This document shows positions 1 to 24,950 of a stretch of 32,670 nt of DNA, one piece after another; the first letter of the stretch is position 1; each line of letters begins with the position of its first letter. The notes beneath the pieces were generated by a model. The model was not told the DNA's origin and ran no database searches. It saw only the letters and a program-made list of their open reading frames with translations. Source of the stretch: a virus; the UHGV virus genome UHGV-0203498; one strand, 5' to 3'. The position numbers and the translations under genes were made by a program.

Positions 1-2064
1 GTTTGGAGGATTCTGCGTATAGTCGTTACCCATTTCATCAACGCTATCCTTAAGCCCGCGGCTGAAGCCATCCCACAACGAAGCGTTTGCACCGGTCTGT
101 GCCTCCTGCACTTCGCGAAGCTTAGACAACGCCCGGTCAATATCGGTATCGTTAGCACCAACACGACGAAGGCGGTCGATTAGCTGTAATTCTTCGCGCA
201 GGTTAGCCGCTTCGCGAGTGGAAAGCGCATACCCAGCGGCGGTGGCTTTTAGCTCGGCGTTCTGGTTCTTAAGGAAGGCATCGATCTGCGCGCTCGCCTT
301 GATCTGCTTCTCTTTCGCGTCCAGCAATTTGGCTTCTTCGACGATCTGCTCGCGTACCGCTTTAACCGACTCGAACTCCGCCATTTGCTGCTTTTCTGCT
401 GCCGTTAGTGCCCTTTCCTTGCTTGCGGCGATTAACTGCTCATTATCTGCAATCAGCTTGTTAAGGGCCGCCTGCGCGCGCTGTGTGCGGGTCTGCGAAG
501 TAGCGTTAGCCTCGATCTGCTTGCCCGATTCACGAAGTTGCGCCAGTTCGCTCCGTGCGGCCTCCAGCATTTTAACACCAGCATCCACGCGAACAGCCGC
601 GGCCTTCTTCGGTGCCGGGTCTTTGTAGCGCTCGTTGACCTGCTTCACCGCCTCAGCCAGTTCTTTCTCGCTAATCACTCCACGCTTATTCAGCAAATTG
701 AGGCGGGCGATCTCATCGGCGCGCTTCTTAGCGTTGGTGGCGAACTCCTTCTCAAACGCGGCGCGGTCCCGGGCTGTGCGGTTGGCCTCCTCATTCGCTT
801 TCGCTGCCTGGTCCGCAGCGCTGGCGTTGTCCCGCTCCGCACGGTTACGCAGGGTGAGAGTCGCTACTACTTTCTCCTGGGCGACCATTTCGCTATAAAG
901 CATGTTAATACGTGCTTTCTGCGCCTCGGTCATTACCCCACCGGCAGCGTTGACCGCTTTCATCTCGGCATAGTAAGCCGTTGTCATGCGCTGCAAGGAC
1001 TCACGCGCTTTCATCTCGGACTCATTCGAGGACTGCGCGCGGCCCACATCCAGGATGGCATCCCACATAGATTTCGCTGCCGATGTGACGACGTTCATCG
1101 ACCGCTCAAGCGTACCCATGTTGGCCTTAATATCGTTGGTCATAGTGGTGAACGACGCAGCCGCTGTTTTGTTAGCCAACGCAACTGCGTCAGTCTCGCG
1201 GCCCATATCCACAAGTGACTGCACCTGCTGGATCTGCGCCTCGGTAACGACATGGTACTTGTCCGCCAGTGCGCGCAAGCCACCAACCGGGTCATTGGAC
1301 AACTTCGCCACCGCAGCGACCACATCGTCAATCGGCTGGCTGGACGCCTTCGCGAAGTCATTAACGGTCTTAGCCAGTGCGCCGAAGTCAGCACCCGCCT
1401 TAACGCCCGCCGCCGCCAGTGCCTGAATTGTGTCTCGCGTCTTGCGGAATGACCCGCCCATGCGCTCGGCGTTCTCCGATAACACCAGGATTTGGTTAGC
1501 GGTGAGGCCGGAGATGTTACCGGACAGCGCCAGCGTCTTGTTTAGCGCTGCGACCTGGTTTTCTGCACGGGTAGTAACTGCCACGCCGACGCCTAACGTT
1601 GCCGTTAATGCCGCTAGGCCGATCCCGACCGGACCGAGAACGCCCGCAACATAACGCAGCGTGCTACCCAGGCCACCAAACGCCCCTGTTAGCTGAGGTA
1701 ACTGCTGAAGCATAACGCGGTGCACCGGCATACCCATCTCAAGCGTGACCGCAATATCCTGTAACTGGAATGCGGCGTTACGAGAGGCAAAGCCCAGGTT
1801 TTTGGTCGACATGCCTAACCTGTTGGCTAGTCGCTCCTGTTTCGTCATGCCATCGGCGGCGCGCTGCGATTCATTCGCCAGCTTTTCCATTCCGCCCGCG
1901 GCGTCACTCGTCACCTTTTTGGATTTGCCGAGTGTGTCGTTTAATTTCTTAACCTTGTTTTCTGTGTTCTCGGATTTCTGTGCGAAGGAGTCCAGCACAG
2001 TATTCGCCGTTCTGATTTGTGCAACATCCGCCTTTAGCGTGATGCCTGCTGCTTGATCTGCCAT
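1..2064 (-). CDS. Tail tape measure protein, N-terminal ~688 aa; C-terminus lies beyond the window start
   Basis: Minus-strand ATG at 2064..2062 opens a frame that stays open to position 1. Translation (MADQAAGITLKADVAQIRTANTV...) is long, alpha-helical and A/Q/K/E-rich, typical of tape measure proteins. It sits downstream of the tail chaperone genes. The ORF track omits it because it has no stop inside the window. Confidence 0.75.
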   Translation of the reverse strand, partial: MADQAAGITLKADVAQIRTANTVLDSFAQKSENTENKVKKLNDTLGKSKKVTSDAAGGMEKLANESQRAADGMTKQERLANRLGMSTKNLGFASRNAAFQLQDIAVTLEMGMPVHRVMLQQLPQLTGAFGGLGSTLRYVAGVLGPVGIGLAALTATLGVGVAVTTRAENQVAALNKTLALSGNISGLTANQILVLSENAERMGGSFRKTRDTIQALAAAGVKAGADFGALAKTVNDFAKASSQPIDDVVAAVAKLSNDPVGGLRALADKYHVVTEAQIQQVQSLVDMGRETDAVALANKTAAASFTTMTNDIKANMGTLERSMNVVTSAAKSMWDAILDVGRAQSSNESEMKARESLQRMTTAYYAEMKAVNAAGGVMTEAQKARINMLYSEMVAQEKVVATLTLRNRAERDNASAADQAAKANEEANRTARDRAAFEKEFATNAKKRADEIARLNLLNKRGVISEKELAEAVKQVNERYKDPAPKKAAAVRVDAGVKMLEAARSELAQLRESGKQIEANATSQTRTQRAQAALNKLIADNEQLIAASKERALTAAEKQQMAEFESVKAVREQIVEEAKLLDAKEKQIKASAQIDAFLKNQNAELKATAAGYALSTREAANLREELQLIDRLRRVGANDTDIDRALSKLREVQEAQTGANASLWDGFSRGLKDSVDEMGNDYTQNPPN

Positions 2065-2126
2065 TATGCAGTCCCCTTTTTTATGCAGTTGCCGATTGAC
2101 ATTGTATCAGCGAATTTAAAACAATC

Positions 2127-2289
2127 CTTATGCAGTCTCAGACGAGGGGGGTGCCAGACCCCCCGTCTAGTCTGAAAGACTGGGGTGCTGTCCCGCTGTC
2201 CCGATCGGCTGAAACCCGCGGCAGCACTGCGGGGGACGGGGTGCTGTCCCGCTTTGTCCCGCCCCTGGTCTGTCCCGCTTTTTGTCCCG
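2127..2289. repeat. Copy A of a ~163-bp structured repeat element (imperfect long palindrome followed by a GTCCCGC heptamer array)
   Basis: 2128-2203 is identical to 18923-18999 and 2233-2289 is identical to 19027-19083; a ~29-nt variable segment separates the two identical arms. Contains the near-palindrome CAGTCTCAGACGAGGGGGGTGCCAGACCCCCCGTCTAGTCTGAAAGACTG. Confidence 0.85.
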
Positions 2290-2447
2290 TTTGTTTTATG
2301 TAGTAAAACTGAATAGGTATGCACTTTTTCAGGGGGTGCCGTAGCGGGACGTCCCGCTTGTCCCGCTTTTAGTTTATGCAATAAAAGTAAATAGGTATGC
2401 AGTTTTCGAGGGGCGGGACAAAACGGGACGTCCCGCTTGTCCCGCTT
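2290..2447. repeat. Two tandem ~79-bp units (TTTATGCAATAAAA...AGGGGG...GGGACGTCCCGCTTGTCCCGC)
   Basis: Units begin at 2295 and 2374 with TTTATG(C/T)A(A/G)TAAAA and end with GGGACGTCCCGCTTGTCCCGC. Perfect 10-bp palindromes GGGACGTCCC lie at 2346-2355 and 2425-2434. Confidence 0.8.
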
Positions 2448-2450
2448 TAT

Positions 2451-3126
2451 TATGCGGGGTTTTGCTGCGCCATTTCATCGAGCGCGATTCGCTCCATTAG
2501 CTTGATATCTTTAAACGCACGTTGCTCGTTTTCGATGCCGTGCATCTTAAATAGCCATTCCAGTACGCCGTAGTCGATGCCGTATGCGCCACCGAATCCG
2601 GTGCGCCATTGCGTGGCGCAATCCGTGAATACGGCGACTATCTTCGCGTTGTCGGGCCATAGCGCAACAGGCGGACAAACATCTTCGGGGGCCGCGCCCC
2701 ATAAACTCGCGGCTAAATCCTCGGAGGGTGGCGGCGGGCCATAATAGCGTCGCGCCGCCTCAATTAGTTTTTTTCACGCAATCCCATCAGTTCGAGATAG
2801 TACGAGGTATGGAACACGCCGAACGCGCGCGGATAGTTGACTACCAGGCGGCGGACGTTCTCCGCATTAAATTCGTCCGGCAGATTCCAGCCTTCGGCGA
2901 CGTGCATGATGGCCTCGACCATAACGTTAAAGCCATCAGGGTCGTTGTCGTCATATTCCGATAGCTTGCGTTCCGTTTCCTGCATGGTCTGCGAAAACTC
3001 GTCAATCGGGCGGTGCCGGACGGTAAACGTCATCTTGCCTGGTTCGTTCTCGCCAGGGCGCGGGATCTCAATCGGCAGCTTAAAGGTTGGCTTAGGGTCG
3101 AGTGTGAAGAGTGGGGCTTTAGCCAT
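2451..3126 (-). CDS. Tail assembly chaperone frameshift fusion (gpGT-like), made by a programmed -1 shift at A AAA AAC (2767-2773)
   Basis: The -1 frame downstream of the heptamer is open for ~104 codons (KKLIEAARRYYGPPPPSEDLAASLWGAAPEDVCPP...MAQQNPA, stop at 2453..2451) and has no start codon of its own. This is the conserved G/GT arrangement upstream of tape measure genes. Confidence 0.55.
2764..3126 (-). CDS. Tail assembly chaperone (lambda gpG-like), 0-frame product
   Basis: ATG at 3126 is preceded by GGAG. Position is between the major tail gene and tape measure gene. The ORF ends in the slippery run GAA AAA AAC TAA. Confidence 0.6.
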   Translation of the reverse strand: MAKAPLFTLDPKPTFKLPIEIPRPGENEPGKMTFTVRHRPIDEFSQTMQETERKLSEYDDNDPDGFNVMVEAIMHVAEGWNLPDEFNAENVRRLVVNYPRAFGVFHTSYYLELMGLREKN

Positions 3127-4036: not shown

Positions 4037-4630
4037 ATGCGTAAAGGCATTCTTTTTGAAGGCATGACATTTAGAGGCGTTACTTTGTTGCGTAAAGGGC
4101 CAGGCCTTAAGTGGTTCTGTTCTTGCCCCATATGCGGCAACGAGACACTTCGCACTAACGGCGCGCTATTGGATTTCATGAGAGGCGACACACTGCGTTG
4201 GGTATGTACTTGTTTTGGTAAGAAATCGCGGCACGGTATGACCGGAACTCCAACAATGCTGTCATGGCAAGGCATGATCCAGCGATGCCACAACCCCAAT
4301 GCAGCTAAATACGAAATATATGGCGGTCGAGGGATTACGGTGTGCGACCGCTGGCGAGTATTCAAGAACTTCCTGGAGGATATGGGGCCGCGTCCCAAGG
4401 GCACTACGTTAGACCGTATTGATCAGAATGGTAATTACGAAAAAAGCAACTGCCGTTGGGCTTCGCAAGCTACGCAAAACGATAATACAAGGCGCATTAT
4501 ACATGTTCGTTTTAATGGCGAGGTGTACAACTTAAAATCGGCTTGCAAAGCCGCGGGGGTTAATTACGACACCGTGCGCAAGAAATGGAAAAAAAGCGGT
4601 GAGATGTTCCACCGCTTCGAGATAGTCTAG
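4037..4630 (+). CDS. HNH-type homing endonuclease-like protein with N-terminal Cys cluster
   Basis: Opposite strand to the flanking tail genes. Cys cluster CSCPICGN...CTC, and a C-terminal region YEIYGGRGITVCDRW...TLDRIDQNGNYEKSNCRWASQATQNDN that resembles phage HNH endonuclease signatures. GGAG 7 nt before the ATG. Confidence 0.5.
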   Translation: MRKGILFEGMTFRGVTLLRKGPGLKWFCSCPICGNETLRTNGALLDFMRGDTLRWVCTCFGKKSRHGMTGTPTMLSWQGMIQRCHNPNAAKYEIYGGRGITVCDRWRVFKNFLEDMGPRPKGTTLDRIDQNGNYEKSNCRWASQATQNDNTRRIIHVRFNGEVYNLKSACKAAGVNYDTVRKKWKKSGEMFHRFEIV

Positions 4631-5049
4631 CCGCAACAGCTATACATGACCGATACCACGATGCGGGCGCGATCAACATCCTCGACCACCGAACTGGTGT
4701 ATGGCGCGTCCTGAAGCTGGAAAGCCGCACCATCGATCTTGACGCCCTGCCATTTGTCAGACGTCGCGATGGCGTCCGCCAGTTCGCTCGCGTACTGTGT
4801 GCCAGTGCCCGCGGGAAACACAACGGCAACCTGGTAAACGCCTGCATAGATCCGGCCTTTCTGCTGAAGTCCAGCAAACTGGGTCGGGGCCGGTAGCAGG
4901 TACGGATCAAGATAGACGCCATTGCCGTTTGCGTGGTCCCCCTTCACGTTCTCCCAGTTAACCTGGATCGGGCGCTGGTTAGTGCTCAGGCTTACCGATA
5001 ACTCTTCTACTACGCTGTTAAGCGCCTTGCGGATTAGAGTATTGCTCAT
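4627..5049 (-). CDS. Structural protein, possibly tail terminator / tail completion
   Basis: 140-aa ORF between the neck-type genes and the major tail gene. Its ATG at 5049 overlaps the upstream stop (TAATG). Assignment is by position only. Confidence 0.4.
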   Translation of the reverse strand: MSNTLIRKALNSVVEELSVSLSTNQRPIQVNWENVKGDHANGNGVYLDPYLLPAPTQFAGLQQKGRIYAGVYQVAVVFPAGTGTQYASELADAIATSDKWQGVKIDGAAFQLQDAPYTSSVVEDVDRARIVVSVMYSCCG

Positions 5050-8644: not shown

Positions 8645-8674
8645 TTGCAATCTGGGTGTTGGTTGCACTATATT
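8645..8674 (+). promoter_or_regulatory. Putative sigma70-like promoter for the DnaN-like moron (TTGCAA-N18-TATATT), overlapping TTGGTTGCAC motifs
   Basis: TTGCAA at 8645-8650 and TATATT at 8669-8674; TTGGTTGCAC copies at 8659-8668 and 8673-8682; palindrome TTGGT-N5-ACCAA at 8673-8687 just before the RBS. Confidence 0.4.
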
Positions 8675-8703
8675 GGTTGCACACCAACAACGAGGAAATG
8701 AAA

Positions 8704-10772: not shown

Positions 10773-12276
10773 TGTCCGCTACCTTGTCCGGGTCTTCTTC
10801 GGTAGATTCTACCGCATCAGGTGACATTTGAGGCAATGGATTCTGATTTCGCAATTCGTCTTCCACCTGCTCGACGGTTTGCGAGTCGTCGATGACGCCC
10901 TGCGCCATCATCCACTTGATGAAATCAGCCAGGCGGACCGTACCAGTCTGCACACCCGACATCATCGCTGTCATAAGCTGCGCATCAACCGTGATTTCGG
11001 TGTAGAACTTGTTCAGCGTCACTCGCTGGTCCGCGGTGTCTCCAGTGAATAGCTGGACAATTTGCAGCGCACGGTTGAAAGCCTTCTCAACGTTACCGGC
11101 AATAAGTGACAGGATACTGTTATCAGTCTGCGCGTCGTAGGCCGCTTCTGTTGCCGTCTTAGGTGCAGTCCCCTTCTCAACCAGGGCCGCGCCAAGTTTA
11201 GCCATTTGCAACTCGCGGCGCTCGCACAACGCTACCGACAAGTTGCGCTCCTCGGCCTGGAGCAGTTTAGCGTCCATGTTCTGGCCCAGGATAACGCCCT
11301 TAGTTGCACCGAGAGCAATGCCACCCTTCAGGTTTTTGTCCGCCCATGATTGCGTCAGGCCCGTGGTGACAAGGGTCGGCTGGCCCACAATGTGCGCGAT
11401 CTCGGCAACGTCCGCTTCGGCGTTGTAGTGCTTAATATTGATAGACGCAATATCCGCCAGCGGCGCGGCGTCAGGCGATGCGTTGTTGTCCACCGCGCCA
11501 CACCAGCAAAATGGCAGTTGAGTAAGCGCGTTACCGGCTGCGTCCACCAACGGTACAAGGTCGGTTCGGGTGAAGCCACGCGGCAGGTCCATTTGCACCT
11601 CGGACGTGTCAGCGTTGTAAAACCAGCGGCGGGCGTGTGCCTTGCCGTCAATCATGCGAAGCTCGGTCCAGATGGTTACTTCGTGGTTTGCGAAGTCGTC
11701 CGGGTCTTCGGTGCTGATTTCGTCCGTTTCCTTCAGCACGATTAGCGTATCGACCCCGTGGGTCTGCCGCCAGTTGATGATCTGTTCTGCCGTATACAGG
11801 CGGATAAGCGGGCGGTGCGCAGCCATCTCGGCGGCGGTCTGCGGCACTACGTTACCCAGTTCGTCAAAGTTGGCCTGGTGGTCGTAGTCCACCATAAAGC
11901 CAGCGCGGCCAGATTGCAGCACTTCCGACATAGCACCGCGCAGGAGTTGCGGCAACGGCATACCGCTGCCGTCTACGTCATCAATCAGGTCAGCCATCGC
12001 CCCGGAAAGGTCCAGACTTACCGGTTTTGCAAAGGCAACGCCCAACAGCGCGTTAAGTGTGCGAGCGGTGGCGTTCAGGAATACAGCGCGTTGCTTATAC
12101 GCCTTATACCGCGCCCGTGATTTCGGGTCAGTATTGTCGCCGCTGGCGGGATGTGGCAGATACAAAGGGCCGCACGCCTTCACGGCGCGCTCCCCTGCTA
12201 CACAATCCCGGATCATTTTCCACTCTGGCGCGATGCGCGCATAAAGCGGGTGCTGGTTGTCAACGTTAACGGTCAT
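10756..12276 (-). CDS. Portal protein
   Basis: 506-aa ORF directly downstream of the large terminase gene; AAGGAA RBS; acidic C-terminus. Size and position fit a portal. Confidence 0.65.
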   Translation of the reverse strand: MTVNVDNQHPLYARIAPEWKMIRDCVAGERAVKACGPLYLPHPASGDNTDPKSRARYKAYKQRAVFLNATARTLNALLGVAFAKPVSLDLSGAMADLIDDVDGSGMPLPQLLRGAMSEVLQSGRAGFMVDYDHQANFDELGNVVPQTAAEMAAHRPLIRLYTAEQIINWRQTHGVDTLIVLKETDEISTEDPDDFANHEVTIWTELRMIDGKAHARRWFYNADTSEVQMDLPRGFTRTDLVPLVDAAGNALTQLPFCWCGAVDNNASPDAAPLADIASINIKHYNAEADVAEIAHIVGQPTLVTTGLTQSWADKNLKGGIALGATKGVILGQNMDAKLLQAEERNLSVALCERRELQMAKLGAALVEKGTAPKTATEAAYDAQTDNSILSLIAGNVEKAFNRALQIVQLFTGDTADQRVTLNKFYTEITVDAQLMTAMMSGVQTGTVRLADFIKWMMAQGVIDDSQTVEQVEDELRNQNPLPQMSPDAVESTEEDPDKVADNGEND

Positions 12277-18517: not shown

Positions 18518-18711
18518 CGTTCGGTCCTCTTCGTGATGGTTACGCTGTCCAGGAACTGGAAAAGCGCCTCTTGTGCCTTGACGCGCATTGCTTCGTATCG
18601 GCGCTCTTTCTTAAAGTTGCCGAGTAGGTGTGCGGCTCGCGCTTGCAGGTCAGCATTGTTCTCCGCCTCAATCAGTTCTAACAGTTCGTCGACCAGGTCT
18701 TCGTGTTCCAT
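18505..18711 (-). CDS. Hypothetical acidic protein; first gene of the operon
   Basis: ATG at 18711 preceded by AGGAGGA and by the TTGGT-N5-ACCAA palindrome. The upstream region carries a TTGCAG-N16-TTATAT promoter-like arrangement overlapping two ATTGGTTGCA motifs. Confidence 0.45.
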   Translation of the reverse strand: MEHEDLVDELLELIEAENNADLQARAAHLLGNFKKERRYEAMRVKAQEALFQFLDSVTITKRTERCEH

Positions 18712-18732
18712 CGTTCAGTCCTCCTGTTGGTG

Positions 18733-18776
18733 TGCAACCAATATAACAGGGTGCCAGGGTGACTGCAACCAATATT
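18733..18776 (-). promoter_or_regulatory. ATTGGTTGCA motif pair with overlapping promoter-like hexamers upstream of gene 18711
   Basis: On the minus strand: ATATTGGTTGCAGTCACCCTGGCACCCTGTTATATTGGTTGCACACCAACAGGAGG. Confidence 0.45.
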
Positions 18777-18921
18777 AATCACGCGCATGAAAAAGTTGAT
18801 CGCTATCTGCTGAAACTGCAAACTGCATTTTTCACTCTCCATTCTGCAACTCGCATTGGTTGCCGAGTTCATCGACGACCGCAATTTGCATCATGTTGCC
18901 GTGCGTTATGCAATCCCGGAT

Positions 18922-19083
18922 TTTATGCAGTCTCAGACGAGGGGGGTGCCAGACCCCCCGTCTAGTCTGAAAGACTGGGGTGCTGTCCCGCTGTCCCGCT
19001 CCTCTGGAAGCCGCGTCATCCGTGGGCGGGACGGGGTGCTGTCCCGCTTTGTCCCGCCCCTGGTCTGTCCCGCTTTTTGTCCC
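18922..19083. repeat. Copy B of the ~163-bp structured repeat element
   Basis: 18923-18999 is identical to 2128-2203 and 19027-19083 is identical to 2233-2289, in the same orientation, 16.8 kb from copy A. Confidence 0.85.
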
Positions 19084-19132
19084 GCTTACTTTATGCAATA
19101 AAAATGCATAATTATTCACTATATTCACACTA

Positions 19133-19216
19133 CACGGCAACCAATACGACCAGCTAAAAACACGCAATCTGGCAACCAATGCGCGCAGAAATTAACCAAC
19201 ATGGCAACCAATGCGC
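19133..19216 (-). promoter_or_regulatory. Three ATTGGTTGCC motif copies, including an exact 17-bp direct repeat
   Basis: Plus-strand GGCAACCAATGCGCGCA occurs at 19172-19188 and 19200-19216; a third GGCAACCAAT is at 19133-19142. Located downstream of the primase gene stop. Confidence 0.5.
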
Positions 19217-19223
19217 GCAAATT

Positions 19224-21488
19224 TTAATCTTTCAAGTCATCGTCTGTCGCCGAAAGCGTGATTGGGATATCCGATTTGATAACCAAATTAGACGACCCAT
19301 ATATGGCCCCGGTGTGTGGATCTGTGTAAAAACCGAGCACGCCGCGCTCGACCATATCGTCAATTGCCTTCGTCGATGTGCCACCTTTCGCGAGTCCCGC
19401 CTGGCGGACAATTGCCGATTTACTGAATCCAGTATGATCCGGGTTATCTTCCATCAGTTTTTCCAGTGCCGCATAAAGCACTTTTTCTTTTTCTGTGCGC
19501 GGTCCGGCGGTGTTCTCTTCCTTAACTGCGGCTTTGCCCGCGGCCTTCGCCTGTTCGATAGCGAACGGTGCCAGGGCAACCGGTACGAGGTAGAGAGTCT
19601 CGTCGCGTGGCGTGGAGGCGATAGGCTTGACGTCCCAACCGGCAACCACATCGCCGAAGTCAGGCCCAGCGCTGGTGGACTGGTGGGCTTCGAACGCCTC
19701 GGACTTGCGGAGATCCACCTTCACCTTGCACTTGAGCAGGACGAAGCCGCGCGGCGCTTGCTTGATGCCGTTACGAGACTTCTCGTGGTACAGGTTGAGT
19801 TGGCCTGGCTGGTTGTCGTCTGGCTGTTCCAGGAAGAACGCAGAATCGACAGCACCATGAAGCGCGCCGGATCCGCGTGGCGTTCTGCTGCCGTTTGCAC
19901 CTTTAGCCGGGTGGTGGATGACGCCCGCGCTGCCGCCTGTATTTTCCGCAATGGCCTTCAGCGCCTTGACTACCTCGCCCATATCGCTGGCGTTGTTCTC
20001 GTCGAATGGCTTGGCATCGGCGGACCGCAGCGCGACAGTCTGGTTGAGTGAGTCGAATGCCACCAGGCCAACCGGTTCGCCATTCGCGGTGCGATTGATA
20101 AAGCTGATAACTTCGCGCAGGCCAGACTTGCTGGTGATATCCCAGCCGCGTGACTGCAGGTCTATAATGTGCAACTTGTCCAGGTCGTGCTCGTATTTGA
20201 TCTGCAATGCTTCCTTACGCTGGCTGGAGGCTTCGCCGCCTTCCGCATCGAAATAGAAGCAATGGGACTGGACGACCTTCGCACCGCCAAACGGGATACC
20301 AGCGGCAACCGCGCCCATCTGACCCAGCACGTAGAACGACTTACCGATGTTCGACTCACCGGCGAGATACCAGGTCGATTTGAAGTTAACCAGGCCTTCG
20401 ATGATCGGGTCGTGTTTACTGAACAGGGCGACCGGCTCGTTGTCCAGGTCTGCATCTGTGCATTCGCCGAACTCGTCGCCGTCACCGACCGCGTCCACGA
20501 TATGCTCGTAGCATGATTCCACTTCCTCGTCGTCCAGCCCCGGAAGGATGGCGGCGATCTGCTTACGTGACATGTTGTGCGGTTCGACGTTCAGGTGGTC
20601 CGGGATACCGATCAGACGCAGCGCCAGGTGCTGGTGTTTATTCAGTTCTGAGCAACACTCGTTACCGGTGTGCATACACTTGAAACGGATCTCGCCATCC
20701 TTAACCAGGATTGCCGTTGACCCTTCGCCACTGTGCAGGTGTTCGTTAGGACACGGCACTTCATAGCCGCGACCGGATGACAGGGGTTCAAAGCCCGCCT
20801 GGAAGCACCAGTCCAGGATGCCGTCTGCCACACCGCCGTCGCCCTGGGTCAGTTCGTGGCGTACTTCCTCTTTCTCAACTCCCAGCTTGTCAGCCAGGCG
20901 GAGCAGACGACGGACGCGGGCACGCTTGCCGTAGTGGCACTTAACGACAGCCTGCTGGTGCGGCAGGTACATAAGGCGGTTTGTGTCTTTCGTGCAATCG
21001 TCGAAAGCCACATCAGACAGGCCCAGTTGGTCTAACAACGCATACTGGACGCGGCCCAGGTCTTCCGCCGGTACAGGCTTGTCAGTGAGCACCAGGAAAC
21101 GAGCGCAACGCGTGCCACCTTTCAGCGGGTGTCGGTCGCCGGTAGTGGTGTGGAAGACGTGCTCCAGTCCCGCGTCGATGAACGCCTTACGGCAGCGGCG
21201 TAAGGTGCTGGTGTCGGTGCGGTCAATATCGAAGAACAGGATCGAGCGGTCCACCGCACTGGTCTTACGACGCAATCCGTCACGGGTATACGCCACTATG
21301 CCATCAGCCTTACGCTTGCGGCGCGCATACTCGGCTTTATCTTCCGTCTTGTTGATATGCACCGACGATATTTCTTTCGCATCTTTGATAAATTCGAAAA
21401 ATTCATCAGTGGTCATCTGGAAGTTTTCCGCCCTGGCTTTTTCGCCTTTTTTAGCGGGTTTTGTTACAGCGAATTTAATTAAGCTCAT
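19224..21488 (-). CDS. DNA primase / helicase (primase-polymerase-like N-terminal domain, zinc-binding middle region, P-loop ATPase C-terminal domain)
   Basis: N-terminal ILFFDIDRTD (hhhhDhD primase-polymerase-like motif); Cys/His cluster CPNEHLH...CMHTGNECC; Walker A AGESNIGKS and Walker B-like GLVAFDSLN. Confidence 0.8.
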   Translation of the reverse strand: MSLIKFAVTKPAKKGEKARAENFQMTTDEFFEFIKDAKEISSVHINKTEDKAEYARRKRKADGIVAYTRDGLRRKTSAVDRSILFFDIDRTDTSTLRRCRKAFIDAGLEHVFHTTTGDRHPLKGGTRCARFLVLTDKPVPAEDLGRVQYALLDQLGLSDVAFDDCTKDTNRLMYLPHQQAVVKCHYGKRARVRRLLRLADKLGVEKEEVRHELTQGDGGVADGILDWCFQAGFEPLSSGRGYEVPCPNEHLHSGEGSTAILVKDGEIRFKCMHTGNECCSELNKHQHLALRLIGIPDHLNVEPHNMSRKQIAAILPGLDDEEVESCYEHIVDAVGDGDEFGECTDADLDNEPVALFSKHDPIIEGLVNFKSTWYLAGESNIGKSFYVLGQMGAVAAGIPFGGAKVVQSHCFYFDAEGGEASSQRKEALQIKYEHDLDKLHIIDLQSRGWDITSKSGLREVISFINRTANGEPVGLVAFDSLNQTVALRSADAKPFDENNASDMGEVVKALKAIAENTGGSAGVIHHPAKGANGSRTPRGSGALHGAVDSAFFLEQPDDNQPGQLNLYHEKSRNGIKQAPRGFVLLKCKVKVDLRKSEAFEAHQSTSAGPDFGDVVAGWDVKPIASTPRDETLYLVPVALAPFAIEQAKAAGKAAVKEENTAGPRTEKEKVLYAALEKLMEDNPDHTGFSKSAIVRQAGLAKGGTSTKAIDDMVERGVLGFYTDPHTGAIYGSSNLVIKSDIPITLSATDDDLKD

Positions 21489-21498
21489 TGCCGTAGCC

Positions 21499-21828
21499 TT
21501 ACTTAGAAGTTTTATTATTGCGTACCCAGGAGCGCACTGTGCTCTGATTAATTCCGGTCAACTCGGCAATCATCGCCCATGACTTACCTTCGTCGCGCAA
21601 ACGGATAACCTGCTTTTTGTATTCTTCCATTTCTTCATTGTGTTTTTGCAGCTTGCTTGCTGCCGTGCCATTGAGCAATTCAAGCCTGGCGCGTAATTCT
21701 TTTTCGACACTGCGCAGGCGCTCGATTTCAAATAACACCGCACCAACGGCGTCGGTATAAGCCCAGGACCGGCTTGTTTCACCGCTAACAGTTTTCGTTA
21801 ACATTTCGATTGCGTCGTTTACATTCAT
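21499..21828 (-). CDS. Putative DNA-binding regulator (coiled-coil N-terminus, C-terminal helix-turn-helix)
   Basis: C-terminal KSWAMIAELTGINQSTVRSWVRNN is HTH-like. First gene of the primase operon, preceded by GAGGGAAG RBS and the palindrome GTTGGT-N5-ACCAAC (21842-21858). Confidence 0.5.
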   Translation of the reverse strand: MNVNDAIEMLTKTVSGETSRSWAYTDAVGAVLFEIERLRSVEKELRARLELLNGTAASKLQKHNEEMEEYKKQVIRLRDEGKSWAMIAELTGINQSTVRSWVRNNKTSK

Positions 21829-21859
21829 TGCTCTTCCCTCAGTTGGTTAATGACCAACG

Positions 21860-21889
21860 AAACTACACCCAAAACCGCACGGTGTCAAA
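21860..21889 (-). promoter_or_regulatory. Putative sigma70-like promoter for the minus-strand primase operon
   Basis: Minus-strand TTGACA (plus 21884-21889), ~18-nt spacer, TAGTTT (plus 21860-21865). The -10 is weak. Confidence 0.3.
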
Positions 21890-21979
21890 TACTTTGGTTA
21901 TTGAAACGGGCGCGCACGCGTGTAATAATAATTCCGTCTCATTGTCTCTTATTGGTTAGCGCCGTCGCATTTTGCCTTG

Positions 21980-22033
21980 GCGCTTTTTTTTTGAAATTAG
22001 TTGTTGACACCCCACATGCAACCAATCTAATAT
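21980..22033 (+). promoter_or_regulatory. Putative strong sigma70 promoter with upstream T-tract (UP-like element) for the plus-strand early operon
   Basis: TTGACA at 22004-22009, 18-nt spacer, TAATAT at 22028-22033; T9 tract at 21984-21992; the spacer contains GCAACCAAT. Confidence 0.5.
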
Positions 22034-22229
22034 TCACTCCGTCGACAGGATGCAGGACGCAAACTGGAGAGGGGCAACGCAGGGGCCGGATCGAAGTGTC
22101 AGGATTCCCAACCGTGATTATATAACCAGGTCCACTACCCGAACGGGAGAACGCGTAACCTGGCAATATGTTAAGGCCACCGACGAAGTTAACTGCCGAC
22201 ACCTAAACTTAACCAATCGGAGATATACC

Positions 22230-22760
22230 ATGTTTGAGCAAATCGTAAACCTGATCACACGCGGCGTAGTAGCACTGGAAACCATCGCGAAGCATTATGA
22301 AACCGTCGGTGCTGCCGTGGACCCAAAAGCGAACGGCACAGCTAAGAAAGGCAAGGCTAAGCCGGAAACCGAAGTCGAAGACGACGATCAGGACGAAGTA
22401 GAAGATACGCCTAAAGCGAAAAAAGGCGCGGCAAAAGAAACCAAGTCTAAAGGTAAGGCTAAGAAGGAAGTCGTAGAAGATGAAGACGACGAAGCGGAAG
22501 AAGAAGCTCCGGCGAAGTCTAAGAAAGCGAAAGGCAAAGGTAAGAAAGAAGCTGACCCGCTGGCAGAAATGCGCGACGAAATCAAACAGTATGCCGCTAT
22601 TATTGCAGGCGGTGATGATGATGATGCGAACGACGAATTTGATGACCTGCTGGAATCGTATGAAATTAAATCCATCGCCAAGCTGGAAGACGACGACGTC
22701 GAAGACTTCCACAAAGATTTAAAAGAAATCGTCGAAACCTATTTCGAACTGGAAGATTAA
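22230..22760 (+). CDS. Highly acidic, lysine-patch low-complexity protein (first early gene)
   Basis: ATG at 22230 preceded by GGAG at 8-nt spacing; alternating K-rich and D/E-rich blocks (KKGKAKPETEVEDDDQDEVED..., DEDDEAEEEAPAKSKKAKGKGKK). The ORF-track start at 22050 is unlikely. Confidence 0.5.
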   Translation: MFEQIVNLITRGVVALETIAKHYETVGAAVDPKANGTAKKGKAKPETEVEDDDQDEVEDTPKAKKGAAKETKSKGKAKKEVVEDEDDEAEEEAPAKSKKAKGKGKKEADPLAEMRDEIKQYAAIIAGGDDDDANDEFDDLLESYEIKSIAKLEDDDVEDFHKDLKEIVETYFELED

Positions 22761-24678: not shown

Positions 24679-24913
24679 AGTATTCGCAGTCTTATTGATG
24701 TTTTTGCTAGGCGCGCTGGGATTTATCTTGCATTGCGTGCAAGGCGTGTTAATGGTGGCCTGGATGATTCGCCATCCAACCCAATGGCTGGACAATGGGT
24801 ATAGCGAAGCTGCCGTCGACTGGGTGGAGAAGAACATTGACCGCCCGCCGTTAAGCTGGATCGAGAACGCCACCAACTACGTGACACGAAATCTTTTTAA
24901 TGAAAATGCTTGA
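24671..24913 (+). CDS. Hypothetical small membrane protein
   Basis: N-terminal hydrophobic segments VFAVLLMFLLGALGFILH and VLMVAWMI; overlaps the upstream gene by 8 nt. Confidence 0.4.
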   Translation: MNKVFAVLLMFLLGALGFILHCVQGVLMVAWMIRHPTQWLDNGYSEAAVDWVEKNIDRPPLSWIENATNYVTRNLFNENA

Positions 24914-24923
24914 CCGCTCAGAC

Positions 24924-24950
24924 GCAACCAAGTAGATTAGCAACCAAGCC
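24924..24950 (-). promoter_or_regulatory. TTGGTTGC motif pair (variant) upstream of the SSB gene
   Basis: Plus-strand GCAACCAAG at 24926-24934 and again 16 bp later. Confidence 0.35.

What the first reader, a model, noticed from the sequence alone, without database searches (positions are those of the whole stretch)
18712..19223. 512-bp non-coding hub between the primase operon and the downstream operon
This interval contains copy B of the structured element, three ATTGGTTGCC motifs (two inside an exact 17-bp direct repeat at 19172-19188 and 19200-19216), a single motif at 18854-18864, and a motif pair overlapping promoter-like hexamers (18733-18776). For a compact phage genome this is an unusually long and repeat-dense untranslated region. 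The ORF predicted across it (18832-19179) reproduces peptides of the 2064-2381 ORF only because of the shared repeat.
Basis: seen in the sequence. Interest (0 to 1): 0.6.

Follow-up and report, generated by a model that had tools for sequence, protein, structure and literature searches.

The report
Phage origin-like repeat and promoter hub
This 512-base gap after a coliphage's helicase-primase gene is a real, conserved non-coding control region that most likely holds the phage's replication origin, flanked by promoter/operator sites; it is a familiar kind of element and a relative's database record already flags it as 'region B'.

Summary
The window is a Dhillonvirus (HK578/SO-1-like E. coli siphophage). 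The gap 18712-19223 is non-coding: all three ORFs across it are broken in most of 18 relatives.

It has three layers.
- ATTGGTTGC sites: 13 exact in the window against 0.39 expected. In a complete relative 16 of 19 lie in the 7.8% intergenic DNA. They overlap sigma-70-like core promoters in either orientation, including the promoter of the downstream lysis/morphogenesis genes.
- A central module: an AT-rich palindrome (the least stable 40-mer in the window), six direct and one inverted CGGGAC(A), and an invariant GC hairpin with no U-tract.
- A paralogue of that module upstream of the tape-measure gene.

Dense CGGGAC arrays also sit directly beside primase-helicase or replicative-helicase genes in unrelated viral contigs (12/27 dense against 1/51 sparse loci; usually within about 5 nt of the stop codon; either orientation). 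More distant relatives keep the same gap with their own repeats.

Best reading (about 0.55): an iteron-type origin module next to its helicase-primase gene, embedded in operator-controlled promoters. No binding protein is identified. The SO-1 GenBank record already annotates both regions as repeats, so this is a new member of a known kind.

The parts
19203..19212 (-). ATTGGTTGCC site 1, inside the 18-nt exact repeat 19202-19219
   Evidence: Copy number of this unit varies from 1 to 3 among relatives.
19171..19180 (-). ATTGGTTGCC site 2, inside the 18-nt exact repeat 19170-19187
19136..19145 (-). ATTGGTTGCC site 3, nearly invariant in 19 sequences; supplies the first hexamer of a promoter-like site
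19111..19140 (-). sigma-70-like site TTGCCG-18-AATAAT that reads into the central element
   Evidence: scan hit; sequence conserved. Function is inferred.
19085..19124 (.). AT-rich tract (20% GC) containing the palindrome TTATGCA-N7-TGCATAA (19091-19111); candidate DNA unwinding element
   Evidence: Least stable 40-mer duplex in the 32.7-kb window. Palindrome arms invariant, 7-nt spacer variable.
18985..19084 (-). CGGGAC(A) array: six direct copies (+ strand GTCCCG starts 19079, 19067, 19051, 19041, 18993, 18985) and one inverted copy (19027-19032); candidate iterons
   Evidence: Direct copies invariant, inverted copy poorly conserved.
18928..18977 (.). Long imperfect GC hairpin AGTCT..CAGAC..GACGGGGGG-loop-CCCCCCTCGTCTGAGACT, with no U-tract after it
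   Evidence: -28.4 kcal/mol, z = -4.5. Stems identical in 33 copies from 18 genomes, loop variable. Annotated 'terminator' in phage CS16, but not a canonical terminator by the scans.
18906..18929 (-). TGCATAA-N10-TGCATAA direct pair just after the hairpin
   Evidence: (D20)
18855..18864 (+). ATTGGTTGCC site in the opposite orientation; invariant
18781..18812 (-). Highly conserved block GATAGCGATCAACTTTTTCATGCGCGTGATTAAT upstream of the -35, containing a partial IHF-like ATCAA-N4-TT
   Evidence: The IHF resemblance is from memory only and was not tested.
18734..18773 (-). Promoter-like TTGCAG(18768-18763)-17-TATATT(18745-18740) with two ATTGGTTGC sites, one over the -35 and one over -9..-1; then AGGAGG (18725-18720) and ATG at 18711
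   Evidence: Hexamers and sites conserved, spacer variable. The 21-nt TATATTGGTTGCACACCAACA recurs at 8669-8689 (I8), where the scan finds TTGCAA-18-TATATT.
2065..2452 (-). Copy A region, between the tail-chaperone stop and the tape-measure ATG (2064). It holds three CGGGAC sub-arrays, AT-rich tracts, the same hairpin, then an extended -10 TGATACAAT and TGCATAA-N10-TGCATAATG over the start codon.
   Evidence: Present in all 15 Dhillonvirus contigs examined.
19224..21488 (-). Helicase-primase: primase-like N-terminus, Zn motif, AAA_25 helicase, C-terminal winged helix and acidic DDDL tail; candidate initiator
21499..21828 (-). 109-aa HTH protein (HTH_23 / sigma-70 region-4-like); candidate binder of one of the motifs

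Best explanation
The interval is the conserved non-coding control region at the boundary between the leftward early unit (HTH gene and helicase-primase) and the lysis/packaging/morphogenesis genes of a Dhillonvirus.

Its core (about 18928-19124) is an iteron-type replication-origin module placed next to the gene of its presumed initiator. It has an easily melted AT-rich tract, six direct and one inverted CGGGAC(A) repeats, and an invariant GC hairpin.

Proposed mechanism (inferred): the phage initiator, most plausibly the helicase-primase through its C-terminal winged-helix domain, binds the CGGGACA repeats, opens the adjacent AT-rich tract and loads itself. Transcription from the flanking promoter-like sites may help, and the hairpin may serve as a loading or priming signal. 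Copy A, upstream of the tape-measure gene, would be a second cis site, either a second origin or a P4 crr-like enhancer.

Around the core lie ATTGGTTGC sites. These belong to a genome-wide set of operator-like sites overlapping sigma-70-type core promoters. Here they sit on the promoter of the downstream operon (TTGCAG-17-TATATT) and on a promoter-like site that reads into the core. Through them an unidentified sequence-specific protein would couple expression of the flanking units to the infection programme.
For: Shown by tool results:
1. The gap is non-coding and under selection. ORFs are broken in relatives. Motifs are invariant and spacers variable across 19 sequences, including relatives with 65-88% C-terminal protein identity.
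2. GCGGGAC occurs 25 times in the window (about 6 expected), and 17 of these fall in just two clusters. In complete phage HK1, CGGGACA clusters occur only at these two loci.
3. 19085-19124 is the least stable 40-mer duplex in the window. Copy A's AT tracts rank 4th and 9th.
4. Guilt by association: of 78 viral loci retrieved with a CGGGAC-pair pattern, 27 carry dense arrays. 12 of those 27 encode an AAA_25 primase-helicase, against 1 of 51 sparse loci (Fisher p = 4e-6). In 12 of 13 the array starts within -224 to +46 nt of the stop codon, often +1 to +5. Further arrays abut a Zn-ribbon/Toprim primase (+5), a VapE protein (+3), a Toprim-DnaB protein and a DnaB. No other flanking protein is shared.
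5. Those arrays have the classical origin layout: direct repeats of 11-12 nt period, an AT-rich spacer or central GC hairpin, and inverted repeats. They occur in either orientation relative to the gene, which argues for a DNA-level role.
6. Lineages with 43-49% identical helicase-primases keep the order HTH gene, helicase-primase, 450-650 nt gap, late genes, each with its own repeats. SenTO17 has GGGGGAGA x5 in the same layout, at this locus only.
7. The helicase-primase has a confidently modelled C-terminal winged helix (pLDDT about 90) whose fold matches MarR, histone H1, LexA and Fur DNA-binding domains.
8. For ATTGGTTGC: 13 sites against 0.39 expected. 16 of 19 sites lie in the 7.8% intergenic DNA of HK1 (p = 1e-15). 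5 of 23 scan-predicted promoter-like sites overlap a motif site.
Against: - There is no experimental evidence, and no binding protein is identified.
- The winged helix is not basic. It shows no detectable homology to the conserved C-terminal domain of the other array-linked helicases (hhalign probability 3%) or to any PDB sequence.
- Repeat spacing in the hub (12, 16, 10, 8 nt) is less regular than in classical iterons.
- An independent sample of 62 loci chosen by helicase similarity has no CGGGAC array, so the link is lineage-restricted.
- The same 6-7-mer next to several unrelated helicase families is hard to explain by one cognate domain.
- A second copy inside the tail-gene cluster is unusual for an origin.
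- Both copies point the same way as transcription and each is followed by a promoter, which also fits a transcriptional role.
- The GC-skew minimum lies at the divergent promoter region (about 21.5-22 kb), not at the hub. It coincides with the switch in gene orientation, so it cannot locate an origin.
Confidence: 0.55

Rival explanations
1. Transcription boundary module. The CGGGACA and TGCATAA arrays are binding sites for a phage regulator that controls read-through or activates the next promoter. The hairpin is an attenuator, RNA-processing site or stabilising 3' structure. Copies A and B mark two points in the leftward transcript where expression is reset, before the lysis/packaging genes and before the tape-measure gene.
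For: - Both copies have the orientation of transcription, and each is followed by a conserved promoter-like element: TTGCAG-17-TATATT for B, extended -10 TGATACAAT for A.
- The hairpin is strong and was annotated as a terminator in phage CS16.
- TGCATAA-N10-TGCATAATG overlaps the tape-measure start codon in all relatives.
- No canonical - strand terminator separates the primase gene from the downstream genes, so some other device may be needed.
Against: - No U-tract follows the hairpin.
- In unrelated phages, CGGGAC arrays are tied to the 3' end of primase-helicase genes, not to late operons, and occur in either orientation.
- SenTO17 has the module only beside the helicase-primase gene.
- The AT-rich, least-stable tract has no obvious role in this model.
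Confidence: 0.22
2. Structured RNA. The element is transcribed from the site at 19140-19111, or as part of the long leftward mRNA, and acts as RNA: a small RNA, a put/nut-like antitermination signal, or a protein sponge using the GGA-containing repeats.
For: - A promoter-like site reads into it.
- The 231-nt stretch folds better than shuffles (z = -3.6).
- There are two sequence-related copies in transcription orientation, as for putL/putR or nutL/nutR of lambdoid phages (my knowledge).
Against: - The + strand folds about as well (z = -3.3).
- There is no Rfam match: none at gathering score, and only an 18-bit chance hit at E = 0.9.
- No covariation: stems are invariant in 33 copies and only loops and bulges change.
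- The inverted CGGGAC copy that would form the second stem decays without compensation.
- Arrays in other phages occur in both orientations.
Confidence: 0.1
3. A packaging or recombination site, or a selfish duplicated repeat (MITE-like, bounded by TTATGCA...TGCATAA) with no function of its own.
For: - The element has two copies bounded by short inverted repeats.
- Terminase small subunits of other phages bind arrays of short repeats (my knowledge).
Against: - Both copies sit at fixed positions in every Dhillonvirus contig examined, with no presence/absence polymorphism.
- A and B are old, separately evolving paralogues with invariant motifs, which implies purifying selection.
- Neither copy is next to the terminase genes.
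- There is no match in plasmids.
Confidence: 0.06
4. The interval encodes a protein: the 115-aa ORF 18832-19179 (-), the + strand ORFs 18759-18965 or 18856-19101, or the 17-codon mini-ORF 18828-18775 (-).
For: - These ORFs are open in the window, and some GenBank records annotate hypothetical proteins here.
- The mini-ORF has a GGAGAG Shine-Dalgarno sequence and stays open in 18 of 19 sequences.
Against: - The three long ORFs carry stops or frameshifts in most relatives and have no Pfam hit.
- The mini-ORF's variable columns fall 7/7/4 by codon position, with no third-position excess, and it is absent in L019.
Confidence: 0.03

Closest known systems
'Region B' and 'region A' repeat_region features of Sodalis phage SO-1 (GenBank GQ502199.1)
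   Same: They are the orthologous elements. Region B (40178-40657) lies between gp48 helicase/primase and gp49 and is 93% identical over the core. Region A (11214-11597) lies upstream of the tape-measure gene. Both are annotated as 'direct, inverted and palindromic repeat sequences; sequence similarity with region A/B; possible ...'.
   Different: This is an annotation only. I found no paper that analyses these regions.
Satellite phage P4: alpha protein (primase-helicase with C-terminal winged-helix origin-binding domain) with ori and crr
   Same: One polypeptide combines primase, helicase and a C-terminal winged helix. Short repeats are clustered at two separate loci in the genome. The P4 details are from my knowledge.
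   Different: P4 alpha is an SF3 helicase, whereas this protein has a RecA-type AAA_25 domain. The P4 iteron is TGTTCACC. P4 ori and crr are 4.5 kb apart, against 16.8 kb here. No sequence similarity was found.
SaPI / PICI pri-rep-ori replication modules
   Same: The origin lies immediately 3' of the helicase/initiator gene and is built from two sets of short iterons flanking an AT-rich region, with iteron sequence specific to the Rep lineage (my knowledge). The CGGGAC arrays in L169, L190 and L165, and those abutting helicase stop codons, have exactly this layout.
   Different: The protein families, hosts and iteron sequences differ. In the Dhillonvirus hub, 140 nt of operator-like sites and AT-rich DNA separate the stop codon from the array.
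Iteron-containing plasmid origins (for example IncQ RSF1010 oriV with iterons, an AT-rich region and ssi hairpins; P1 incC/incA)
   Same: They combine iterons, an AT-rich unwinding region and GC-rich hairpin signals, with a RepA-type (AAA_25-like) helicase in the system. P1 has a second iteron cluster elsewhere that acts as a control locus (my knowledge).
   Different: In IncQ plasmids the iteron binder (RepC), helicase (RepA) and primase (RepB') are separate proteins. Nothing similar to the hub was found in 72,556 plasmids.
Phage operator sets overlapping core promoters (for example lambda OR/OL for CI and Cro)
   Same: A short conserved motif occurs in 2-3 copies over the -35, spacer, -10 or +1 of sigma-70-type promoters. 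It is spread over several promoters of the genome and works in either orientation.
   Different: The binder is unknown. The site is a 9-mer, not an obvious dyad. The phage is virulent with no repressor/integrase module. The motif also persists in lineages with a different upstream HTH family.
Intrinsic (Rho-independent) terminators
   Same: A strong GC-rich hairpin lies at the end of a transcription unit, and it is annotated as 'terminator' in phage CS16.
   Different: No U-run follows the stem on either strand, and the scan tool does not call it.

Membership tests
Iteron-type replication origin adjacent to its initiator gene | Cluster of at least 3 direct repeats of a short motif, conserved while the spacers vary | tested here: met
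   Six direct and one inverted CGGGAC(A) in 100 nt. Direct copies are invariant in 19 sequences.
Iteron-type replication origin adjacent to its initiator gene | Adjacent AT-rich, easily melted region (DNA unwinding element) | tested here: met
   19085-19124 is the least stable 40-mer in 32.7 kb.
Iteron-type replication origin adjacent to its initiator gene | Physical linkage to a replication-initiator or helicase gene, conserved across lineages | tested here: met
   The same synteny holds in lineages with 43-49% identical helicase-primases. CGGGAC arrays abut helicase genes in unrelated phages (12/27 against 1/51).
Iteron-type replication origin adjacent to its initiator gene | Repeat spacing near one helical turn (about 11 or 22 bp) | tested here: inconclusive
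   Spacing is 12, 16, 10 and 8 nt in the hub. It is 11-12 nt in many arrays of other phages.
Iteron-type replication origin adjacent to its initiator gene | A cognate initiator protein binds the repeats | not testable with these tools
   Only a candidate exists: the C-terminal winged helix of the helicase-primase. It has no homology to the other array-linked C-terminal domains.
Iteron-type replication origin adjacent to its initiator gene | Supports initiation of DNA synthesis in vivo | not testable with these tools
   This needs marker-frequency analysis or an ori-plasmid assay. GC skew is uninformative here.
Sigma-70 promoter with overlapping operators | -35 and -10 hexamers with 16-18 nt spacing upstream of a gene with a Shine-Dalgarno sequence | tested here: met
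   TTGCAG-17-TATATT followed by AGGAGG and ATG at 18711; it scores 8/12, below the scan threshold. Sister sites at 8645, 15687, 22004, 24910 and 19140 pass the scan.
Sigma-70 promoter with overlapping operators | Conserved motif copies overlapping core promoter elements at several promoters | tested here: met
   16 of 19 sites are intergenic, and 5 of 23 promoter-like hits overlap a site.
Sigma-70 promoter with overlapping operators | An identified regulator binds the motif, and transcription starts are mapped | not testable with these tools
   The 109-aa HTH protein is a candidate, but the motif persists where the upstream HTH gene belongs to another family.
Intrinsic terminator | GC-rich stem-loop | tested here: met
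   -28.4 kcal/mol, z = -4.5
Intrinsic terminator | U-rich tract immediately after the stem | tested here: not met
   The sequence after the stem is CATAAAATCC, and no scan hit falls in the hub.
Known structured RNA family (Rfam) | Match to a covariance model at gathering score | tested here: not met
   No hit in the whole window. The only hit in the hub at E <= 1 is an 18-bit chance match.
Structured RNA in general | Compensatory base changes in the stems | tested here: not met
   33 hairpin copies (26 distinct) have invariant stems with variable loop and bulge. The inverted CGGGAC copy decays uncompensated. Invariant pairs count neither for nor against a structure.
Protein-coding gene | Reading frame kept open in relatives, with a codon-position substitution bias | tested here: not met

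The most novel reading that the evidence does not exclude
CGGGAC(A) arrays may be a previously undescribed, widely distributed class of phage replication origin. The same 6-7-nt iteron, with a central GC hairpin or AT-rich spacer, would then be used beside at least five different primase/helicase architectures (Prim-Pol+AAA_25, Toprim+AAA_25, Zn-ribbon/Toprim, VapE, DnaB-type). The contigs range from 55 to 69% GC and also include E. coli Dhillonviruses. That would imply either a common but unrecognised origin-binding module or a recognition mechanism based on structure rather than on one cognate protein. Dhillonviruses would carry two such modules 16.8 kb apart (an ori plus a crr-like site), wired into a genome-wide ATTGGTTGC operator regulon.
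Probability: 0.3. Interest if true: 0.7.

Novelty: new member of a known kind. Interest (0 to 1): 0.5.

Why it matters
Dhillonviruses are common coliphages used in phage-defence and phage-therapy work, yet their origin of replication and transcription programme are unmapped.

This analysis provides:
- A concrete candidate origin at 18928-19124, with a second site at 2065-2452.
- A candidate initiator, the helicase-primase.
- A set of about 19 operator-like sites that mark the phage's promoters.

All three can be tested directly by marker-frequency sequencing, footprinting and 5'-end mapping. They are also useful for engineering, for example in choosing which intergenic DNA not to disrupt.

The wider result is that dense CGGGAC arrays sit against the stop codons of primase-helicase genes in unrelated viral contigs. 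If it holds up, origins could be predicted from sequence in many uncultured phages. It also raises the question of how one short repeat serves several helicase families.

Tried and rejected
- Rfam on the whole window and on the hub found nothing.
- GC skew: the minimum is at the divergent promoter region and cannot be separated from transcription direction.
- PDB sequence search with the helicase-primase gave no hit. Pfam on its N- and C-terminal thirds found nothing.
- The first homologue search, with the C-terminal 220 aa alone, returned nothing. The full-length query worked.
- Concerted evolution of copies A and B: rejected. Orthologous copies are more alike than paralogous ones, and hairpin loops are not matched within genomes.
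- A shared small flanking protein as the array binder: none was found across array loci.
- A standalone copy of the 'WWRxxFY...KKAFxRA' C-terminal domain in loci lacking the AAA_25 fusion, or in the window: none. Profile-profile homology to the Dhillonvirus C-terminus was 3%.
- Plasmid database search with the core element gave no match.
- Literature string searches for the motifs and for Dhillonvirus/SO-1 origins or promoters found nothing relevant. The Argonaute paper that mentions HK578 has no origin data.
- From memory I considered sigma-54, NtrC, ArgR and IHF sites, KOPS, CsrA sponges and T7-type primase sites (GTC). None fits well and none was tested beyond inspection.
Full report
**What the window is.** The region matches 159 phage records at 80-95% identity, nearly all Escherichia/Shigella Dhillonvirus (HK578, SSL-2009a, SO-1-like). 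The first 25 kb is about 90% identical to phages bov22_1, Gluttony and HK1.

By the HK1 annotation and the ORF list, the - strand carries, from right to left:
- a 109-aa HTH gene (21828-21499);
- a 754-aa helicase-primase (21488-19224);
- the gap in question;
- small genes, holin, endolysin, an exonuclease, terminase, head and tail genes;
- the tape-measure gene, which starts at 2064.

The + strand from about 22230 carries replication genes (SSB, DNA polymerase, a helicase, methylases).

**Checking the observation.**
- The 198-nt repeat 2128-2325 / 18923-19120 is 89% identical.
- ATTGGTTGC occurs 13 times against 0.39 expected, and no shuffle reaches 13. Six copies lie in the 512-nt gap.
- The ORF 18832-19179 shares long peptides with ORF 2064-2381 only because of the shared DNA.

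**The gap is non-coding and under selection.** I aligned the window with 18 relatives. The three ORFs that cross the gap carry in-frame stops or frameshifts in most of them. Conservation is motif-shaped.
- Invariant or nearly so: the third ATTGGTTGCC, the arms of TTATGCA-N7-TGCATAA, every direct CGGGACA, the hairpin stems, the inverted GGCAACCAAT, a block upstream of the -35, and the two promoter-proximal ATTGGTTGC sites.
- Variable: the palindrome spacer, the hairpin loop and the promoter spacer.

A relative with only 65% C-terminal identity in the helicase-primase (L019) keeps all motif classes. Its upstream ATTGGTTGC sites are inverted, which points to protein-binding DNA sites rather than promoter hexamers or RNA.

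**The ATTGGTTGC layer.** The flanks of all sites show pairs of sites 12-31 nt apart in intergenic DNA. In the complete HK1 genome, 16 of 19 (N)TTGGTTGC sites lie in the 7.8% of the genome that is intergenic (binomial p = 1e-15).

The sites overlap sigma-70-like core promoters at about -40..-32, -23..-15 or -9..-1, in either orientation. The scan tool independently calls promoter-like sites on five clusters:
- 8645-8674 (TTGCAA-18-TATATT);
- 15687-15658 (TTGACT-18-CATACT);
- 19140-19111 (TTGCCG-18-AATAAT);
- 22004-22033 (TTGACA-18-TAATAT), which I read as the likely early rightward promoter (its position suggests this; timing was not tested);
- 24910-24938 (TTGACC-17-TAGATT).

That is 5 of 23 distinct hits, where my estimate of the chance expectation is about 0.5.

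The promoter of the downstream operon reads ATTGGTTGCAG-17 nt-TATATTGGTTGCA. The first site supplies the -35 (TTGCAG) and the second covers -9..-1. The 21-mer TATATTGGTTGCACACCAACA recurs exactly at 8669-8689. This is the anatomy of an operator set.

The binder is not identified. The adjacent 109-aa HTH_23 / sigma-70 region-4-like protein is the obvious candidate. However, TTGG(T/C)(T/A)GC-type sites also persist around the 3' end of the helicase-primase gene in lineages whose upstream gene is an HTH_3 protein. That assignment is therefore open.

**The central module.** Read in the direction of transcription, the module contains:
- a promoter-like site (19140-19111);
- a 20%-GC tract with the palindrome TTATGCA-N7-TGCATAA, which is the least stable 40-mer duplex in the whole window;
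- four direct CGGGACA, one inverted copy and two more direct copies;
- a 50-nt imperfect hairpin (-28.4 kcal/mol, z = -4.5);
- a TGCATAA pair.

The hairpin has no U-tract and is not called a terminator. Both strands fold about equally well. Rfam finds nothing. In 33 hairpin copies from 18 genomes the stems never vary, while the loop and bulge do. The inverted CGGGAC copy that would form a second stem decays without compensation. Nothing specifically supports an RNA structure.

**Copy A.** Copy A is present between the tail-chaperone stop and the tape-measure ATG in all 15 Dhillonvirus contigs where I could look. It has three CGGGAC sub-arrays, AT-rich tracts (ranked 4th and 9th least stable) and the same hairpin. 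These are followed by a conserved extended -10 (TGATACAAT) and by TGCATAA-N10-TGCATAATG over the start codon.

A and B are old paralogues, not homogenised copies: orthologues are more alike than paralogues. The 65-68% lineage shows only one hairpin match in its contig. SenTO17 has the module only beside the helicase-primase gene. Locus B is therefore the ancestral one.

**Distant relatives.** Phages with 43-49% identical helicase-primases (Otaku, SenTO17 and contigs L103 and L104) keep the order HTH gene, helicase-primase, 450-650 nt gap, late genes. Each fills the gap with its own repeats.
- SenTO17 has GGGGGAGA x5 in the same layout: spacing 11 and 17 nt, an inverted copy, a further copy, then a hairpin, preceded by GAATAGTTATGCA.
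- L103 has TTGCGAGT.
- L104 has GGGGATCA/TGATCCC pairs.

Lineage-specific repeats at a fixed position beside a replication gene are what co-evolving iterons and initiators look like.

**The key result.** A pattern scan of IMG/VR for two CGGGAC units returned 78 new loci. Of these, 27 carry dense CGGGAC/GTCCCG arrays, with up to 16 copies in 300 nt.

tblastn with all window ORFs found one recurrent partner, the helicase domain of the helicase-primase. A local HMM finds an AAA_25 primase-helicase in 12 of 27 dense loci against 1 of 51 sparse loci (Fisher p = 4e-6). The one sparse case is an array cut off by a contig end.

In 12 of 13 cases the array begins within -224 to +46 nt of the stop codon, and often at +1 to +5. 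Pfam shows several architectures: Prim-Pol+AAA_25, Zn-ribbon+Toprim+AAA_25, and AAA_25 alone. Further arrays abut a Zn-ribbon/Toprim primase, a VapE protein, a Toprim-DnaB protein and a DnaB. No other flanking protein is shared.

The arrays have the textbook origin layout: direct repeats with an 11-12 nt period, an AT-rich spacer or a central 'GACACCCC-loop-GGGGTGTC' hairpin, and inverted repeats. They occur in either orientation relative to the gene. The hub's CGGGACAGCACCCC...hairpin...GTCCCG arrangement is a recognisable variant.

This ties the repeat to replication genes rather than to late transcription.

**The candidate initiator.** The helicase-primase has a primase-like N-terminus (PHROG matches), a Cys/His zinc motif, an AAA_25 helicase domain and an acidic DDDL tail. 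It also has a C-terminal three-helix/two-strand winged helix, modelled at pLDDT about 90. Its Foldseek matches are MarR, MexR, histone H1, LexA and Fur DNA-binding domains, with E 0.01-0.5 and probability up to 0.99.

This parallels P4 alpha (my knowledge). But the domain is not basic. It is also not detectably homologous to the conserved C-terminal domain of the other array-linked helicases.

An independent set of 62 loci chosen by helicase similarity has no CGGGAC arrays, though several carry other repeats downstream. Who reads the repeat therefore remains unexplained.

**Prior knowledge.** The SO-1 GenBank record already marks these two regions as repeat_region 'region A' and 'region B' with a 'possible ...' function that the tool truncates. 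I found no paper on them or on either motif.

**Verdict.**
- Most likely (about 0.55): the core is an iteron-type origin module next to its helicase-primase gene, set among operator-controlled promoters. Copy A is a second cis site.
- Main rival (about 0.2): a transcription boundary device.
- Less likely: an RNA role, a packaging role or a coding role.

What is shown: anatomy, conservation, non-coding status, motif statistics and the cross-phage association. What is inferred: binding, melting, loading and regulation.

Noticed in passing
window 18775-18828 (-): A 17-codon mini-ORF (MQFAVSADSDQLFHARD) with a GGAGAG Shine-Dalgarno sequence ends 2 nt before the -35 site. It stays open in 18 of 19 sequences, but its variable columns fall 7/7/4 by codon position and it is absent in L019, so it is probably not coding.
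   Followed up: partly
window 2064-2090 (-): TGCATAA-N10-TGCATAATG overlaps the Shine-Dalgarno sequence and start codon of the tape-measure gene in every Dhillonvirus contig examined. It looks like a binding site that could control tape-measure translation or transcription.
   Followed up: no
window 2065-2452: An intergenic region of about 390 nt, with its own extended -10 promoter (TGATACAAT), separates the tail-chaperone frameshift gene from the tape-measure gene. These two genes are normally adjacent in siphophages.
   Followed up: partly
L099 4071-4193; L103 4768; L105 4720; L100 4262: In distant lineages, TTGGTTGC-type sites lie inside the 3' coding end of the helicase-primase gene (four copies in Serratia phage Otaku). 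In some lineages they coincide with the codons for the conserved C-terminal 'LVAT' peptide.
   Followed up: no
window 19105-19117; L100 about 4330-4370; L101 about 4430-4500: A GAATAGTTATGCA / GTGAATAGT motif is shared by the Dhillonvirus hub, the SenTO17 hub (two copies) and the Bas72 divergent promoter (two copies). In copy A it occurs inverted. It may be a further conserved binding site.
   Followed up: no
window 21829-22229: The divergent early region holds a strong terminator-like hairpin with a T-run, then TTGACA-18-TAATAT (22004-22033) with an inverted ATTGGTTGC in the spacer. A leader of about 190 nt precedes the first + strand gene at 22230.
   Followed up: partly
window 19227-19260 (protein C-terminus): The helicase-primase ends in an acidic tail (DDDL(K/A/N)D) that is conserved down to 34% identical homologues. 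It recalls the acidic C-terminal tails of T7 gp4, T7 gp2.5 and SSB, which dock partner proteins (my knowledge).
   Followed up: no
L048 about 4700-5000: A distant AAA_25 helicase locus carries GATCATA about 10 times in a 300-nt stretch starting about 500 nt downstream of the helicase-domain match. This is another lineage-specific repeat array beside this kind of gene.
   Followed up: no
L007, L008, L012, L015, L017 (just after the primase stop): Some relatives carry a perfect palindrome ATATGGG(A/G)ATTCCCATAT between duplicated ATTGGTTGCC units. The number of these units varies from 1 to 3 among genomes.
   Followed up: no
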